A DNA stretch of 64,000 nucleotides, taken from IMG/VR virus record IMGVR_UViG_3300027759_003166. The stretch is one strand, 5' to 3'. The stretch comes from a virus. Its lineage: Duplodnaviria; Caudoviricetes. Below are positions 40,421 through 53,614 of the stretch, piece after piece (within the stretch, counting starts at the first letter, position 1; each line of letters begins with the position of its first letter). Below the pieces are notes generated by a model, which saw nothing but the letters and a program-made list of their open reading frames with translations, ran no database searches and was not told the DNA's origin. Position numbers and translations under genes: made by a program.

Positions 40421-41011
40421 TTACATGGTAGGGCCATTGCCATTTTTAAATCCAATGGTTCCACCTTCTTCAATAATACGTTTCTTTACATCTTCAAATA
40501 ATATAGGCGCAAAGTCAGTTTGCTCCACGCATACACAATGATATCGGACATCAATGACAGGTGTGGCAAATTCTCCAGAAGCTGGTCCAGGTTTCATTAC
40601 TCTGTTGGCATGAGTATGCCCGTGTACATTTACACCAAACCTACCTAACGATTCTGTGTGTAATGGGATATGACTAAAAATCATTCCTTCAACTACGTGA
40701 TAGGCACGTAATTCACGGAAGTACTTACGATACTCATCATCTGGAAAGATATCGTGATTGCCGCGGATTAACACCTTGTCGCCGTTTAATCTAGACATAG
40801 TGGGTAAGTGCTTTCGGTTCATAACCACATCGCCTAAGTGATATACTTTATCTTTGGGACCAACACGGTCATTCCAGGCCTTAATCATGGCTTCGTCCAT
40901 TTCTTCAGGACTATCCCAGGGCCTTAATTTGGTCACACCGTCATTCCGTGTGAAATGACATACGCCCTTGTGTCCAAAGTGAGTGTCACTAACTAAAAAT
41001 ACTGCTGGCAT
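40421..41011 (-). CDS. calcineurin-like metallophosphoesterase
   Basis: SDTHFGH, HLGD, GNHD, SHIP, HGHTH. Confidence 0.9.
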   Translation of the reverse strand: MPAVFLVSDTHFGHKGVCHFTRNDGVTKLRPWDSPEEMDEAMIKAWNDRVGPKDKVYHLGDVVMNRKHLPTMSRLNGDKVLIRGNHDIFPDDEYRKYFRELRAYHVVEGMIFSHIPLHTESLGRFGVNVHGHTHANRVMKPGPASGEFATPVIDVRYHCVCVEQTDFAPILFEDVKKRIIEEGGTIGFKNGNGPTM

Positions 41012-41271
41012 TATACGTGCTCCTTTTTAACTCTACCAATACGGCTTGATTTATTCCAATCATAGATAACGCCGTCTGGACATTTACCGTCATTTATGGA
41101 ATCTACTCCAAACATACCGCAGACTTGAAAGTCTGGCCCTGTGATTGTTACGAACCCTCCCCAGTCTTTGGCGAAGCGCATTGCTTGATCTAGAGTATCA
41201 CACTCGTGGAGTTTGTTTCCTATTTTACTTATTACTTTATACATGCCGTAATTATACAGCAGTTTTACCAA
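41011..41271 (-). CDS. hypothetical protein
   Basis: ORF downstream of consensus promoter at 41251-41279 (true start may be internal). Confidence 0.55.
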   Translation of the reverse strand: MVKLLYNYGMYKVISKIGNKLHECDTLDQAMRFAKDWGGFVTITGPDFQVCGMFGVDSINDGKCPDGVIYDWNKSSRIGRVKKEHV

Positions 41272-41275
41272 CTTG

Positions 41276-41512
41276 TCAAGTCTTTGAGCTCATTTTAAGC
41301 AGGTAAAGAGTTACTTCTGGACCATCAACAATTACTACATCGTTGGGATATTTGTTAACACCGTTATACCATATACTGTGCTCGCCTACTTCCCAAACTC
41401 TAACCATTATCTTGTTGAGTTTCTTTACAGTACCAAATTCCAAACTATTACGGTATGGATAACAGACAGCATCGCCAACTTTGATAATGCGTCCTAATTT
41501 ATCTTTATGCAT
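41276..41512 (-). CDS. hypothetical SH3-fold-like protein
   Basis: DKLGRIIKVGDAV. Confidence 0.55.
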   Translation of the reverse strand: MHKDKLGRIIKVGDAVCYPYRNSLEFGTVKKLNKIMVRVWEVGEHSIWYNGVNKYPNDVVIVDGPEVTLYLLKMSSKT

Positions 41513-41966
41513 ACCAAATTTCCTTGAAGCCTTCTTCCAAAGTTGGTTCTTCCCAATTACTAATCATATCGTCGATAACATTCTTTGGAATATGTTTTCC
41601 AGGCCGACTACTTAGCCGTACATCTAATTCATCACGTGGGGGTGTTCGAAATACTACAGCAATAGTATAGTACTCAGGCAACATTCGAATCTTCTTTAAA
41701 CGTGAATATATTGTAGTGCTGGTTTGATCCCAAACAATATCTCGCCCTGCTTCACAAGCATGAGCAACATCACCTACCATATACTCCACGCATTTGGGCA
41801 TAACTTCATTAAAGACTTCGCTATAAGTTTTACCCATATTCTTAGCATATTCTTCAACGTAGCGATCTGTGCTGATGTATGCAGCTTCTTGCAACCATTC
41901 TTGATCGCAATGCCACGAACTTTTACCAGAACATGGCACTCCAACTAACATATACAATTTTGGCAT
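41505..41966 (-). CDS. polynucleotide kinase-like P-loop protein (AAA_33-like)
   Basis: LVGVPCSGKSSW, ISTD, WDQT, EEGF. Confidence 0.8.
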   Translation of the reverse strand: MPKLYMLVGVPCSGKSSWHCDQEWLQEAAYISTDRYVEEYAKNMGKTYSEVFNEVMPKCVEYMVGDVAHACEAGRDIVWDQTSTTIYSRLKKIRMLPEYYTIAVVFRTPPRDELDVRLSSRPGKHIPKNVIDDMISNWEEPTLEEGFKEIWYA

Positions 41967-42078
41967 TACTTAACTTCTACAATATGATATTTTGAATAAG
42001 GATAGTTTTCATGTAACCATTCTAACAATCCAGGCTCATAGGGTAACTTAATGTCACCACGCAGGTTAGTAATGTACA

Positions 42079-42312
42079 TTATACTATTCGACCAGTTACA
42101 TTATAAATTAAATCGTCCAATTGACGTTGATAGTCTTTACTGTTTCGGCGAAGCATCCAAATCTGTTCTACTAGTTCTTTACTATCATATATACCAGTAC
42201 CATTCATGCCCTGCCCACGATCTTCTAATTCCTCAATCAGATCCTCTGTTTCAAAATCTGTAAGATCAACCTCTACTTCAACTTCGGTATAAACGGTTTT
42301 ATACTTGCTCAT
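42079..42312 (-). CDS. hypothetical protein
   Basis: 77-aa ORF. Confidence 0.6.
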   Translation of the reverse strand: MSKYKTVYTEVEVEVDLTDFETEDLIEELEDRGQGMNGTGIYDSKELVEQIWMLRRNSKDYQRQLDDLIYNVTGRIV

Positions 42313-42473
42313 TGTTTGCCTCTTTCTTTATCATATCTAATGCGTAATTAAACCAACCAGTGAATCCTATAATCCAAGCTGATACTTCGTGATGATCCCA
42401 ATGCCACCATATCATTATAGCAGAGAATATAGTGATTGCAATTGCGACATATTTAAAAATTTTATCTACCATA

Positions 42474-42671
42474 TTAAGCCATCCTATCTACGTTTTGTCC
42501 CGGACGATTCATTCGTCGATTCATTTCAATTCGTTTTTCTTCAGTGTCTTTTTGAACTTCTTTAGCATGACGTTGTTGTTGTAACATTTCGGCATGTCTT
42601 CGATCATCATTTATAATTTGTTGATGATGTTTATATTGGATTGCCTGTGCATTAAGTTTGCTAACATTCAT
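42474..42671 (-). CDS. hypothetical Q/R-rich protein
   Basis: 65-aa ORF after promoter. Confidence 0.55.
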   Translation of the reverse strand: MNVSKLNAQAIQYKHHQQIINDDRRHAEMLQQQRHAKEVQKDTEEKRIEMNRRMNRPGQNVDRMA

Positions 42672-42697
42672 AGTTTATGTCCTTTAAACATACTTAT

Positions 42698-42743
42698 ATT
42701 ATACAGTCAAAAAAAAACCCTGTCAACCTAAGTTGGCAGGGTT
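42698..42743 (-). terminator. intrinsic terminator of the TROVE-like gene overlapping a TTGACA-17-TATAAT promoter
   Basis: Stem aaccctgtcaac/gttggcagggtt with A-run (U-run on minus); tgtcaa 42721-42726, attata 42698-42703. Confidence 0.75.
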
Positions 42744-42765
42744 CAAAGTCATATTACTATAACTA

Positions 42766-52880: not shown

Positions 52881-52885
52881 GAATA

Positions 52886-52971
52886 TGGTGGAGGCGGATG
52901 GATTCGAACCACCGTGCTTTTTACGGGCAAGATTTACAGTCTTGTGCAATCAACCTCTCTGCCACGCCTCC
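52886..52971 (-). tRNA. tRNA-Tyr(GUA)
   Basis: Class II, loop CUGUAAA, CCA. Confidence 0.93.
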
Positions 52972-52979
52972 AAAATTGT

Positions 52980-53134
52980 TACACACTCCCGCTACGCTTT
53001 TTGACGCGATTCAAAGTCGCGAAAGAGAATGTGTATATTAAAACATACTAATGAAATTGCACTACCTCAGTTTCACGCTGAGTTACCAGTAGTCACGGAG
53101 GCATTGTCCTCCTGCAAATAGTATGCTTTAATAT
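52980..53134 (-). ncRNA. long-stem elements IIe (52980-53036, imperfect) and IIf (53035-53134)
   Basis: IIf 16-bp inverted repeat atattaaaacatacta/tagtatgctttaatat (G-U on minus strand). Confidence 0.5.
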
Positions 53135-53239
53135 GACGAATTTTTTTATCTACAAGAAGATAATCCATCCTCGTCACCGCCCGTTTACCCCATGTTTATA
53201 GTGCAGGGTGTGGTCCTCGTTACCACATATTCACACTCG

Positions 53240-53276
53240 AAAAGCAAAAACCCCAGGGTGTTTAGTCCTAGGGTCC
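53240..53276 (-). terminator. intrinsic terminator of the leader (attenuator terminator)
   Basis: GACCCUAGG/CCUGGGGUU 9-bp stem followed by U-tract (UUUUUGCUUUU). Confidence 0.7.
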
Positions 53277-53299
53277 TTTGGAGTTAGTGTGTAGTTGTA

Positions 53300-53443
53300 T
53301 TACACTCTGGTCTCCTGGGACCCCTGGCTAATATAGCCCTCTGGTGTGCGATCATTAGATAGACTATCAAACGCCAACCAGCATGAGGGCATCTGCCCTA
53401 ATTTGGCTATCGTATGTTTATAGTTTCTAACTGCTGATTGCAT
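53300..53443 (-). CDS. 47-aa leader peptide containing all 20 amino acids
   Basis: MQSAVRNYKHTIAKLGQMPSCWLAFDSLSNDRTPEGYISQGSQETRV* by manual translation; below ORF-track cutoff. Confidence 0.6.
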   Translation of the reverse strand: MQSAVRNYKHTIAKLGQMPSCWLAFDSLSNDRTPEGYISQGSQETRV

Positions 53444-53500
53444 TTTACTTTCCAATTTACCTTTAAATTACTACACGGCATTATTGCTGTGTATGTATGA

Positions 53501-53529
53501 ATTATACATTTATTTAGCCTCGCTGTCAA
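53501..53529 (-). promoter_or_regulatory. sigma70 consensus promoter P1 of the tRNA array
   Basis: TTGACA-17-TATAAT (plus tgtcaa 53524-53529, attata 53501-53506). Confidence 0.85.
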
Positions 53530-53585
53530 CCTGTTTTTGCCTTTTTGAACAAAATATTTTGACTTTGTTGCTGTGTATGTGACTA

Positions 53586-53614
53586 ATTGTATAGTGATTG
53601 TGTTACCCTGTCAA
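53586..53614 (-). promoter_or_regulatory. sigma70-type promoter P2 of the tRNA array
   Basis: TTGACA-17-TACAAT (plus tgtcaa 53609-53614, attgta 53586-53591). Confidence 0.75.

What the first reader, a model, noticed from the sequence alone, without database searches (positions are those of the whole stretch)
40421..53614. Possible integrated tRNA-damage response module
Seen, all on one strand in transcription order: attenuator-like leader, full tRNA set with tRNA mimics, ACAGCAA elements, TROVE-like gene, then a PNK-like kinase (41505) and a metallophosphoesterase (40421). Known: T4 Pnk with Rnl1 heals PrrC-cut tRNA, and Pnkp proteins combine kinase and phosphoesterase activities. Inference: sensing, replacement, decoy and end-healing functions are clustered. 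No RNA ligase is visible in this window.
Basis: inference. Interest (0 to 1): 0.7.

Follow-up and report, generated by a model that had tools for sequence, protein, structure and literature searches.

The report
Phage tRNA island with RNA-repair genes
An uncultivated freshwater giant phage places a near-complete tRNA set, a Ro60-like RNA-binding ring protein with its small partner RNAs, an RNA 5'-kinase and a phosphoesterase together on one strand; this is a real, conserved RNA-damage toolkit of a kind already catalogued in big phages, but here it has no RNA ligase.

Summary
- Two consensus promoters are followed by a 47-codon leader ORF with a terminator and antiterminator.
- The array has 28 tRNAs, or 29 counting a sub-threshold Gln.
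- There are five ACAGCAA stem elements.
- A DUF2828/DUF7788 protein models as Ro60.
- A 153-aa kinase has polynucleotide kinases as its best structural matches.
- The metallophosphoesterase keeps all its metal ligands.

In 80 related IMG/VR contigs the phosphoesterase (70) and kinase (55) lie just downstream of the Ro-like gene. Their order varies, but they stay adjacent (median gap 299 bp). The same slot holds a PTP-type phosphatase in 73 contigs, an HD protein in 8 and an Rnl1 RNA ligase in 7. In unrelated phages the kinase family sits next to Rnl1, Hen1 plus a Pnkp-type ligase, or is fused to an HD domain.

I read this as an RNA end-healing cassette attached to a Ro-like particle and a replacement tRNA array. 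The window holds no ligase, and neither does a 96%-complete relative. Repair therefore cannot be finished by the visible genes. The sensing and decoy roles are inferred only.

This scan found similar islands before in other phages. Verdict: new variant of a known kind.

The parts
53586..53614 (-). Promoter-like site P1 (TTGACA-17-TACAAT, 11 of 12 matches); an ACAGCAA lies about 10 nt after the -10 box
53501..53529 (-). Promoter-like site P2 (TTGACA-17-TATAAT, 12 of 12 matches); an ACAGCAA lies about 10 nt after the -10 box
53300..53443 (-). 47-codon leader ORF whose peptide contains all 20 amino acids. Its last codons (about 53318-53327) can pair with the 5' arm of the terminator.
   Evidence: All five full-length homologous ORFs in related contigs also contain all 20 amino acids.
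53246..53276 (-). Intrinsic terminator: a GGACCCUAGG...CCCUGGGG hairpin followed by a U-run. It is mutually exclusive with an antiterminator helix.
   Evidence: The hairpin and the alternative pairing are present in the window and in all six relatives examined.
44531..52971 (-). Array of 28 tRNA genes covering 19 amino acids, plus a sub-threshold tRNA-Gln(ttg) at 51992-52066. Several consensus promoters lie inside the array (50338, 48267, 47321, 46773).
52605..52662 (-). ACAGCAA stem element E, a candidate Y-RNA-like RNA
52306..52516 (-). Candidate YrlA-like RNA with T-arm and D-arm look-alikes. ARAGORN calls a tRNA-like fold at 52423-52506 only at 80% of its threshold. Not verified.
   Evidence: (fold z-score -1.7, not significant)
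52164..52217 (-). ACAGCAA stem element D. Its inner hairpin is a 5-bp stem with the loop CUUUUAA, matching a tRNA-Lys(UUU) anticodon loop.
47555..48217 (-). FkbM-type methyltransferase gene inside the tRNA array; not conserved in relatives
49428..50087 (-). Second FkbM-type methyltransferase gene inside the array, with a weak TRM5/TYW2 match; apart from one weak 25%-identity match (L044) it is not conserved in relatives
44449..44525 (-). ACAGCAA stem element C, with a T-arm look-alike; lies just after the last tRNA
44404..44432 (-). Promoter-like site (11 of 12 matches) between elements C and B, upstream of the Ro-like gene
44267..44369 (-). ACAGCAA stem element B (103 nt, fold z-score -3.6)
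44203..44256 (-). ACAGCAA stem element A, directly upstream of the Ro-like gene. This is the commonest type in relatives.
42766..44187 (-). Ro60-like protein of 473 aa: a helical ring plus a vWA domain with an intact DxSxS MIDAS motif. Pfam families DUF2828 and DUF7788; phrog_850.
42698..42726 (-). Consensus promoter (12 of 12 matches) just after the Ro-like gene, ahead of three small ORFs and the kinase
41505..41966 (-). Stand-alone P-loop kinase of the polynucleotide-kinase type (153 aa)
   Evidence: Context evidence.
41276..41512 (-). Small ORF (78 aa, phrog_2251) of unknown function
41011..41271 (-). Small conserved ORF (about 77 aa from the ATG at 41244) of unknown function. Its stop overlaps the phosphoesterase start. 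Present in 64 of 80 related loci.
40421..41011 (-). Binuclear metallophosphoesterase of the aq_1665 type (196 aa), with all metal-binding motifs intact

Best explanation
This is the early-expressed translation-maintenance island of an uncultivated freshwater jumbo phage.

The parts and their proposed roles:
- Replacement: a near-complete set of phage tRNAs stands in for host tRNAs.
- RNA-protein particle: a Ro60-like ring protein probably binds the adjacent ACAGCAA stem RNAs. These are Y-RNA analogues, and some carry tRNA-like or anticodon-loop-like modules.
- End healing: the kinase would phosphorylate 5'-OH RNA ends. The metallophosphoesterase would remove 2',3'-cyclic or 3'-phosphate ends. 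Host anticodon nucleases leave exactly these ends.

In seven sister phages the same slot also holds an Rnl1 RNA ligase, which completes a heal-and-seal pathway. This phage's lineage has no ligase. I therefore think the healed fragments are most likely passed on to exonucleolytic clearance, possibly through the Ro-like particle, while the phage tRNAs take over translation.

The leader ORF with its terminator and antiterminator probably increases read-through into the first part of the array when translation stalls.

What is shown: the gene identities, the predicted folds, the conserved linkage and the RNA element family. What is inferred: the substrates, protein-RNA binding, the fate of healed ends, and the sensing and decoy roles.
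For: Kinase identity:
- The AlphaFold model has mean pLDDT 93.
- Its best solved-structure matches are mammalian PNKP, Clostridium thermocellum Pnk (TM 0.77, rmsd 3.1) and T4 Pnk. Gluconate kinase is clearly worse (TM 0.60).
- The only sequence hit in the PDB is Pnkp1.
- The P-loop, D34 and the R117-x3-R121 lid are invariant in the family alignment.

Kinase-family context in unrelated phages:
- It lies directly after an Rnl1 gene in Cr30, RpAliso, RHph_I1_18 and BUCT-ZZ01.
- It lies beside Hen1 and a Pnkp-type ligase in XacN1.
- It is fused to an HD domain, with Rnl1 1.3 kb away, in Campylobacter phage NCTC12673.

Phosphoesterase:
- All metal ligands are invariant across two divergent subtypes that occupy the same slot.
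- Homologues sit near the kinase in phiN3 and BUCT-ZZ01, and near the DUF2828 gene in S13.

Linkage in the clade of 80 related contigs:
- The phosphoesterase is present in 70 and the kinase in 55. Both orders occur (34 and 18 loci). The median gap between them is 299 bp.
- The slot also holds a PTP-SAK phosphatase in 73 contigs, an HD_4 protein in 8 and Rnl1 in 7.

Ro-like protein:
- The model has mean pLDDT 93.5. Its 13 best hits are all Ro60, Rsr or phage Ro60.

ACAGCAA RNA elements:
- In the relatives, 142 stem elements lie on the gene strand and none on the other strand. In 60 of 64 loci an element lies within 450 nt upstream of the Ro-like gene.
- The same design flanks DUF2828 genes in SUSP2, Listeria LMTA-57, LeBron, PK-3 and S13.
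- Anticodon-loop-like hairpins occur in 28 of 70 short elements, against 1.2 in shuffles.

Leader:
- The ORF, terminator and antiterminator pairing are present in the window and in all six relatives examined.

Literature:
- Ro60 with Y RNA tethers PNPase (PMC4201824).
- Bas63 gp130 is Ro60-like, lies beside tRNA genes and counters a host defence (PMC11482910).
- The RNA-repair repertoire of jumbo phages has been surveyed (PMC7824862).
Against: - No Rnl1, Rnl2-type ligase, RtcB, Pnkp-type ligase or CCA-adding enzyme was found in four large relatives, one of them 96% complete. Positive controls worked. None was found in the window either. Only a T4-like DNA ligase is present in the relatives.
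- A profile of the phosphoesterase family matches only aq_1665, an uncharacterised protein. It does not match lambda phosphatase or the Pnkp phosphatase domain.
- The phosphoesterase family occurs in 1,937 phage records, including small phages.
- The kinase lacks the D-x-x-R arginine in the position seen in T4 Pnk and CthPnk (the comparison is partly from memory).
- The Ro-like gene, the kinase and the phosphoesterase each have their own consensus promoter.
- The 80 relatives are one phage family, so part of the synteny is inherited rather than independently selected.
- Nothing here tests substrates or binding.
Confidence: 0.55

Rival explanations
1. The genes are neighbours in a plastic early-gene region but do not work together. 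The tRNA array and the Ro-like particle serve translation. The phosphoesterase and kinase have unrelated targets, such as signalling nucleotides, small molecules or proteins.
For: - Each gene has its own consensus promoter.
- The phosphoesterase family is in 1,937 phage records, many without tRNA arrays, and its only solved relative is uncharacterised.
- AAA_33 kinases have many substrates, and gluconate kinase and PFK-2 kinase also match the model.
- In S13 the phosphoesterase homologue is annotated as a Ser/Thr phosphatase.
- The inserted ORFs in the array vary between relatives.
Against: - The kinase and phosphoesterase stay adjacent through order flips. Two divergent phosphoesterase subtypes occupy the same slot.
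- Rnl1, HD and PTP-SAK genes join the same slot in sister phages.
- The kinase family sits beside RNA ligases or Hen1 in at least six unrelated phages.
Confidence: 0.2
2. The kinase and phosphoesterase heal DNA ends (5'-OH, 3'-phosphate) for the phage's T4-like DNA ligase. This would repair damage done by host nucleases to phage DNA. The tRNA and Ro-like genes are merely nearby.
For: - An ATP-dependent DNA ligase is the only ligase found in the relatives, and in one of them it lies 6.5 kb downstream of the kinase.
- The best structural match of the kinase is mammalian PNKP, a DNA repair enzyme.
- T4 Pnk and CthPnk also act on DNA (established knowledge, and the titles of PDB entries).
Against: - In the 96%-complete relative the DNA ligase lies 36 kb away.
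- The recurrent neighbours of the kinase family are RNA ligases, Hen1, CCA-adding and Thg1-like enzymes and tRNAs, not DNA repair genes.
Confidence: 0.08
3. The cassette matures the phage's own RNAs rather than responding to damage. The kinase and phosphoesterase would trim and tidy the ends of tRNA or Y-like RNA precursors cut out of the long array transcripts. The Ro-like protein would act as a chaperone or quality-control factor for misfolded precursors.
For: - The genes lie at the 3' end of a very long array with many internal structured spacers.
- Ro60 binds misfolded RNAs (titles of PDB entries).
- CCA-adding enzymes lie near DUF2828 genes in S13 and ME3.
Against: - Normal tRNA processing by RNase P, RNase Z and exonucleases leaves 5'-phosphate and 3'-OH ends, which need no healing (established knowledge).
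- The presence of Rnl1 in sister phages points to breaks that need sealing.
Confidence: 0.12

Closest known systems
Bacteriophage T4 Pnkp plus Rnl1 tRNA repair (counter to the PrrC anticodon nuclease)
   Same: A phage-encoded 5'-kinase of the same fold (T4 Pnk TM 0.68-0.69), combined with a 3'-end phosphoesterase activity. Sister phages add an Rnl1-family ligase in the same gene cluster.
   Different: - The kinase stands alone, whereas in T4 it is fused to a HAD phosphatase.
- The phosphoesterase is a binuclear metallophosphoesterase.
- No ligase is found in this lineage.
- The cluster is tied to a Ro-like gene and a tRNA array.
Bacterial Pnkp/Hen1 RNA repair system (Clostridium thermocellum Pnkp; Capnocytophaga Pnkp1)
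   Same: - The kinase is structurally closest to the CthPnk kinase module (TM 0.77), and by sequence it matches only Pnkp1.
- A calcineurin-type phosphoesterase is the healing partner.
- In XacN1 the kinase homologue sits beside Hen1 and a Pnkp-type ligase.
   Different: - The components are separate genes.
- The phosphoesterase is of the aq_1665 type, not the lambda-phosphatase type.
- There is no ligase and no Hen1 here.
Salmonella rsr-yrlBA-rtcBA operon (Ro60, Y RNAs, RtcB ligase, RtcA cyclase), induced by damaged tRNAs (PMC7790460, PMC4201824)
   Same: A Ro60-type ring protein, adjacent small RNAs with tRNA-like modules, and RNA-end-processing enzymes in one locus. Listeria phage LMTA-57 even has the order tRNAs, ACAGCAA RNAs, DUF2828, RtcB.
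   Different: - The protein matches DUF2828/DUF7788, not the Pfam TROVE family.
- The RNAs carry ACAGCAA rather than the GNCGAA motif and do not reach Rfam's YrlA threshold.
- The enzymes are a kinase and a phosphoesterase, not RtcB and RtcA.
- Control appears to be by constitutive-looking promoters and an attenuator, not by RtcR.
Bas63 gp130, a Ro60-like protein next to the tRNA genes of a Felix O1-like coliphage that counters the ppl defence system (PMC11482910)
   Same: Felix O1-like phages carry a DUF2828 homologue (37-39% identity). In SUSP2 it lies directly beside the tRNA array and is flanked by ACAGCAA stem RNAs.
   Different: - Identity with gp130 itself is inferred from synteny and was not tested.
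- No kinase or phosphoesterase lies nearby in SUSP2.
- The defence countered there is predicted to degrade DNA.
RNA-repair repertoire of jumbo phages (Iyer et al. 2021, PMC7824862)
   Same: tRNA provisioning, ROT/TROVE proteins, polynucleotide kinases and calcineurin-like phosphatases are already described there as one counter-defence theme.
   Different: - That survey reports kinases and phosphatases as generally congruent with RNA ligases, whereas this lineage is ligase-free.
- It does not describe the ACAGCAA RNAs or the leader attenuator.
Leader-peptide transcription attenuators of amino-acid operons (trp, his)
   Same: A promoter, a short ORF, and mutually exclusive antiterminator and terminator hairpins whose choice would depend on ribosome position.
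   Different: - The peptide has no run of one regulatory codon. Instead it contains all 20 amino acids.
- The controlled genes are tRNAs.
- Several internal promoters would bypass the attenuator.

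Membership tests
Polynucleotide 5'-kinase (T4 Pnk / CthPnk clade of P-loop kinases) | P-loop kinase fold closest to solved polynucleotide kinases | tested here: met
   The top Foldseek hits are PNKP, CthPnk (TM 0.77) and T4 Pnk (TM 0.69). Other kinases score lower.
Polynucleotide 5'-kinase (T4 Pnk / CthPnk clade of P-loop kinases) | Catalytic residues: Walker A Lys-Ser, a general-base Asp after strand 2, and lid arginines | tested here: inconclusive
   G-x4-G-K-S, D34, R117 and R121 are invariant. The Arg three residues after the Asp is not conserved. Mapping onto the T4 and Cth residues is partly from memory.
Polynucleotide 5'-kinase (T4 Pnk / CthPnk clade of P-loop kinases) | Phosphorylates 5'-OH polynucleotide ends | not testable with these tools
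   Requires an enzyme assay.
Bifunctional Pnkp (T4 type or bacterial type) | Kinase fused to a phosphatase domain (HAD in T4; lambda-phosphatase-like in bacteria) | tested here: not met
   The 153-aa protein is a kinase domain only. A search for longer forms found only two unrelated fusions.
Lambda-phosphatase / Pnkp-type metallophosphoesterase | Sequence kinship with lambda phosphatase or the CthPnkp phosphatase domain | tested here: not met
   A family profile searched against the PDB finds only aq_1665 (8e-15).
Calcineurin-like binuclear metallophosphoesterase superfamily | Motifs D-x-H, G-D, G-N-H-D, H and G-H-x-H intact | tested here: met
   D9, H11, D61, N85, H86, H114, H130 and H132 are invariant in 22 sequences. 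The Pfam Metallophos match is above its cut-off.
Ro60 / TROVE proteins | Ring of helical repeats joined to a vWA domain with a MIDAS motif | tested here: met
   The 13 best PDB matches are all Ro60, Rsr or phage Ro60, aligned over the full length (TM up to 0.65). The next matches are vWA domains only, at E about 1e-2. D279-x-S281-x-S283 is invariant.
Ro60 / TROVE proteins | Match to the Pfam TROVE family or to solved Ro60 by sequence | tested here: not met
   Pfam gives only DUF2828 and DUF7788. There is no PDB sequence hit at E up to 1.
Ro60 / TROVE proteins | Binds an adjacent Y RNA through a terminal stem | tested here: inconclusive
   A conserved, strand-specific family of stem RNAs lies next to the gene in this clade and in five distant phages. 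Binding was not tested.
YrlA-type bacterial Y RNA (Rfam RF02553) | Reaches the Rfam model threshold | tested here: not met
   The only match scores 26 bits against a threshold of 69, and it overlaps two real tRNAs.
YrlA-type bacterial Y RNA (Rfam RF02553) | Terminal stem, conserved loop motif and a tRNA-like module, encoded next to the Ro gene | tested here: inconclusive
   The stem, the ACAGCAA motif and adjacency are present. T-arm and D-arm look-alikes appear in the long elements of relatives and in element C. The motif differs from GNCGAA (PMC4201824).
Leader-peptide attenuator | Short ORF whose 3' end takes part in an antiterminator that competes with an intrinsic terminator | tested here: met
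   The alternative folds are predicted in the window and in all six relatives examined.
Leader-peptide attenuator | Read-through responds to the supply of charged tRNA | not testable with these tools
   Requires a reporter or an in vitro coupled transcription-translation assay.
Complete heal-and-seal RNA repair pathway | An RNA ligase encoded by the phage | tested here: not met
   None was found in the window or in relatives G001-G004. An Rnl1 is present in 7 of 80 sister loci.

The most novel reading that the evidence does not exclude
This is a ligase-free 'bait, heal, clear and replace' system. Y-like RNAs held by the Ro-like ring display anticodon-loop mimics, commonly the Lys-UUU loop, which lure or report host anticodon nucleases. 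The kinase and phosphoesterase convert the resulting 5'-OH and cyclic-phosphate ends. This lets host exonucleases clear broken RNAs and erases cyclic-phosphate alarm signals. A leader peptide containing all 20 amino acids acts as a general sensor of tRNA shortage and opens transcription of the replacement tRNA array.
Probability: 0.15. Interest if true: 0.85.

Novelty: new variant of a known kind. Interest (0 to 1): 0.55.

Why it matters
Phage tRNA arrays, Ro-like proteins and RNA end-healing enzymes are usually discussed separately. Here they form one conserved island, and sister phages add or drop the ligase. That gives a natural series for testing two questions: what healing without sealing achieves, and what Ro-like particles do in phage infection. 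The genes are small and could be tested in E. coli with T4 mutants and known anticodon nucleases. The general theme is already catalogued, and this scan has met similar islands before, so the finding refines an existing picture rather than opening a new one.

Tried and rejected
- DNA similarity to GenBank phages gave only an 88-nt tRNA match. No whole genome is held for this window.
- The Rfam scan at E up to 1 gave 27 tRNAs and chance hits. The weak YrlA hit overlaps two true tRNAs, so I rejected it.
- I first read ACAGCAA as a promoter start-site motif, because two copies follow the -10 boxes of the tandem promoters. I rejected this as the general explanation. The five stem elements have co-varying closing stems, and the family is 142 to 0 strand-specific in relatives.
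- The fold of 52298-52519 is not better than shuffles (z -1.7), so I list that YrlA-like candidate as unverified.
- A search for longer, fused forms of the kinase found only two proteins (a 2OG-oxygenase fusion and an unknown tail). No kinase-phosphoesterase fusion appeared.
- DLP_6 has a 'kinase' and a Metallophos gene next to its DUF2828 gene, but neither is detectably homologous to the window's genes. The 'kinase' has no Pfam match.
- RNA-library contigs identical to the window cover 42839-43248, 44177-44505 and 53214-53488 in one lake metatranscriptome. Contigs cannot show transcription, ends or strand, so I draw nothing from depth or from uncovered parts.
- The small conserved ORF 41011-41271 has no family in Pfam, PHROGs or the Atlas.
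- I did not run a complex prediction, because I do not claim that the proteins bind each other.

Full report
**What the window is.** The window has no close DNA relative among GenBank phages, and no whole genome is held for it. Its genes are those of a large tailed phage:
- a clamp-loader-like AAA protein;
- a UvdE endonuclease;
- a collagen-like fibre with an S74 chaperone domain;
- sugar-modifying enzymes.

The Ro-like protein has 305 relatives in IMG/VR. The best 80 are 78-92% identical and include contigs of 167-356 kb, one rated 96% complete. Public runs that hold the stretch are lake and freshwater metagenomes. The source is therefore an uncultivated freshwater jumbo-phage lineage.

**The observation.**
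- Two tandem promoter-like sites match the sigma-70 consensus in 11 and 12 of 12 positions.
- They are followed by a 47-codon ORF and a hairpin with a U-run.
- ARAGORN finds 28 tRNAs covering 19 amino acids, and Rfam confirms 27 of them. A tRNA-Gln appears at 90% of ARAGORN's threshold. 'Full set' is therefore nearly right.
- After the array come the Ro-like gene, three small ORFs, the kinase, two small ORFs and the phosphoesterase.
- More consensus promoters lie inside the array and ahead of the Ro-like gene, the kinase block and the phosphoesterase block. This is a multi-promoter early region, not a single operon.

**The kinase.**
- Pfam places it in AAA_33, and PHROGs gives a weaker match to polynucleotide kinase.
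- Its only sequence hit in the PDB is Pnkp1 of the Capnocytophaga Pnkp1-Rnl-Hen1 repair complex (E 0.011). The alignment runs from the P-loop to the arginine lid.
- An AlphaFold model (pLDDT 93) matches best the kinase domains of mammalian PNKP, Clostridium thermocellum Pnk (TM 0.77, rmsd 3.1) and T4 Pnk (TM 0.69, rmsd 3.0). Gluconate kinase and PFK-2 kinase follow with much worse superposition.
- The P-loop, D34, a W-D-Q-T-S-T block, S88-R89 and R117-x3-R121 are invariant or nearly so in the family. The arginine that follows the catalytic Asp by three residues in T4 and Cth Pnk (from memory) is not conserved here.

**Genomic context of the kinase family.** This is the strongest evidence for its role.
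- The homologue lies directly after an Rnl1 RNA ligase in Caulobacter phage Cr30 and Ruegeria phage RpAliso.
- In Rhizobium phage RHph_I1_18 the order is CCA-adding enzyme, Thg1-like enzyme, Rnl1, kinase, then tRNAs.
- In cyanophage BUCT-ZZ01 the order is Rnl1, kinase, three small ORFs, then a 55%-identical homologue of the window's phosphoesterase.
- In Xanthomonas phage XacN1 it is followed by Hen1 and a Pnkp-type ligase domain.
- In Campylobacter phage NCTC12673 it is the C-terminal half of an HD-kinase fusion, with Rnl1 1.3 kb away.

**The phosphoesterase.**
- It carries every metal-binding motif of the calcineurin-like superfamily. These are invariant across two subtypes, about 35% identical to each other, that occupy the same slot in different relatives.
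- A family profile matches only the uncharacterised Aquifex protein aq_1665 among solved structures (8e-15). It does not match lambda phosphatase or the Pnkp phosphatase domain.
- The family is very widespread, in 1,937 phage records including small siphoviruses. Its general role cannot depend on tRNA arrays.
- Homologues lie next to the kinase in phiN3 and BUCT-ZZ01. In the T4-like phage S13 a homologue lies 2.2 kb from the DUF2828 gene, among tRNAs.

**Linkage in the clade.** I ran tblastn of the window's proteins against the 80 loci.
- The phosphoesterase is found in 70 loci, the kinase in 55 and the small ORF 41011-41271 in 64, nearly always within a few kb downstream of the Ro-like gene.
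- Of 32 loci with at least 7 kb of downstream sequence, only 3 lack the kinase and 2 lack the phosphoesterase.
- Among 54 loci with both genes, the order is phosphoesterase-kinase in 34 and kinase-phosphoesterase in 18. The median gap is 299 bp.
- The slot is an island of RNA-end enzymes. A PTP-type 'Swiss army knife' phosphatase is present in 73 loci, an HD_4 protein in 8 and an Rnl1 ligase in 7. The Rnl1 match to PF09511 is 3.6e-11, above the cut-off. In four loci where all three genes are mapped the ligase lies between the phosphoesterase and the kinase; in L009 it lies just after both.
- The window has none of these three extra genes.
- tRNA arrays of up to 38 genes lie upstream on the same strand, and in four loci the Ro-like gene sits inside the array.

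**The missing ligase.**
- Rnl1, Rnl2-type ligase, RtcB, Pnkp-type ligase and CCA-adding families were not found in four large relatives, including the 96%-complete 356-kb contig. Each search found its target in a control phage or in control genomes.
- The clade's own Rnl1 was not found in those relatives either.
- Only a T4-like ATP-dependent DNA ligase is present. It lies 6.5 kb from the kinase in one relative and 36 kb away in another.
- Ligase-free versions of the cassette are therefore real, at least in this subgroup. For the window's own phage only 64 kb is visible.

**The Ro-like protein and its RNAs.**
- The DUF2828/DUF7788 protein models with pLDDT 93.5. Its 13 best PDB matches are all Ro60: Xenopus, human, Deinococcus Rsr and Thermus phage phiLo. 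After them come only isolated vWA domains. The MIDAS motif is invariant.
- The family has 6,122 cluster representatives and occurs in 710 phage records.
- The five ACAGCAA elements share one design: a closing stem, ACAGCAA on the 5' side of an internal loop, a variable insert, and an A-rich 3' side.
- In the 80 relatives the 5' motif occurs 256 times on the gene strand and 5 times on the other. Complete stem elements number 142 against 0. In 60 of 64 loci one lies within 450 nt upstream of the Ro-like gene.
- Long versions contain T-arm and D-arm look-alikes in permuted order, as in bacterial YrlA (PMC4201824).
- Short versions carry anticodon-stem-loop look-alikes in 28 of 70 cases, against 1.2 in shuffles. 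The commonest loop is CUUUUAA, found on six different stems.
- The same design, with unrelated stem sequences, flanks DUF2828 genes in SUSP2, Listeria LMTA-57, mycobacteriophage LeBron, Bacillus PK-3 and S13.
- In LMTA-57 the order is tRNA array, three elements, DUF2828, then RtcB 1.3 kb further on. This echoes the Salmonella rsr-yrlBA-rtcBA operon.
- A preprint reports that Bas63 gp130, a Ro60-like protein next to that phage's tRNA genes, counters the ppl defence system (PMC11482910).

**The leader.**
- The 47-residue peptide contains all 20 amino acids. So do the five full-length homologues found in relatives at 35-62% identity.
- In the window and in all six relatives examined, the last codons of the ORF can pair with the 5' arm of a conserved intrinsic terminator. 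The two structures are mutually exclusive.
- This is a workable attenuator. A ribosome that reaches the stop codon would free the terminator. A ribosome stalled earlier would leave the antiterminator in place.
- Internal promoters mean the attenuator can govern only the first part of the array.

**Reading.** The kinase-phosphoesterase pair is most likely an RNA end-healing pair. It is kept beside a Ro-like ribonucleoprotein and a replacement tRNA array, and in sister phages an Rnl1 ligase completes it. Without a ligase, the healed ends in this phage are most plausibly made fit for exonucleases. Those enzymes need a 3'-OH, and Ro60 with Y RNA is known to recruit PNPase (PMC4201824). Sealing by an unknown enzyme cannot be excluded. 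The rivals cannot be dismissed without biochemistry: unrelated neighbours, DNA-end healing with the phage DNA ligase, or maturation of the phage's own RNAs.

**Relation to earlier work.**
- The general theme is described for jumbo phages: tRNAs, TROVE proteins, kinases, calcineurin-like phosphatases and ligases as a counter to translation-targeting defences (PMC7824862).
- Earlier notes of this scan report similar findings in other phages: a Ro-like protein with ACAGCAA RNAs in an Enterococcus phage, a phosphoesterase-Rnl1-kinase cassette in a phi92-like phage, and a Ro-like gene beside a full repair set after a 25-tRNA array in a TAG-recoded phage.
- What this instance adds is the ligase-free state set against Rnl1-bearing sisters, the persistent kinase-phosphoesterase adjacency, and the attenuator at the head of the array.

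Noticed in passing
window 61608-62819 (+), with 54495-55349, 55349-56233, 62801-63661 (+) and 20962-21915 (-): A 403-aa ORF matches the catalytic domain of the RuBisCO large chain (1e-36). It sits among four family-17 glycosyltransferase genes. This is unusual cargo for a phage.
   Followed up: no
window 47555-48217 and 49428-50087 (-): Two FkbM-type methyltransferase genes lie inside the tRNA array, and the second has a weak TRM5/TYW2 match. Apart from one weak 25%-identity match to the second gene (L044), they are absent from the 80 related loci. They look like variable cargo and could modify tRNAs.
   Followed up: partly
window 53484-53490 and 53568-53574 (-): Both tandem promoters are followed, about 10 nt after the -10 box, by CATACACAGCAA. 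The leader transcripts would therefore begin with the same ACAGCAA motif that marks the Y-like RNAs. This is unexplained.
   Followed up: partly
window 53100-53245 (-): The stretch between the leader terminator and the first tRNA is conserved at 72-85% nucleotide identity in several relatives. It may hold another structured RNA.
   Followed up: no
window 45034-45050 (-): A perfect T-arm look-alike (GCAGGTTCAAGTCCTGC) lies 13 nt upstream of tRNA-Pro and outside any called tRNA.
   Followed up: no
L004 (Synechococcus phage BUCT-ZZ01) 28862-29280 and 30327-30402: ARAGORN calls a permuted tmRNA and a tRNA with anticodon CTA (amber suppressor type) within the tRNA region near the DUF2828 gene.
   Followed up: no
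L089 (Cronobacter phage S13) 7896-8288: Two oversized 'tRNA' annotations (121 and 113 nt) and a 135-nt ACAGCAA stem element lie directly downstream of the DUF2828 gene. The annotated tRNAs may really be Y-like RNAs.
   Followed up: partly
P0001; L002 (XacN1) 5376-6486: One metagenomic protein fuses a 2OG-Fe(II) oxygenase domain to this kinase family. In XacN1 an AlkB-like dioxygenase gene lies immediately upstream of the kinase. This hints at a link with repair of alkylated RNA.
   Followed up: no
window 41011-41271 (-): A small protein of about 77 aa and unknown function is the most constant companion of the Ro-like gene in the clade (64 of 80 loci). In the window its stop overlaps the phosphoesterase start.
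   Followed up: partly
window 34556-35350, 16394-17458, 12369-15617 (-): Other identifiable genes in the window are a GTP cyclohydrolase I, a UvdE UV-endonuclease, and a 1,082-aa collagen-repeat fibre with an S74 chaperone domain.
   Followed up: no
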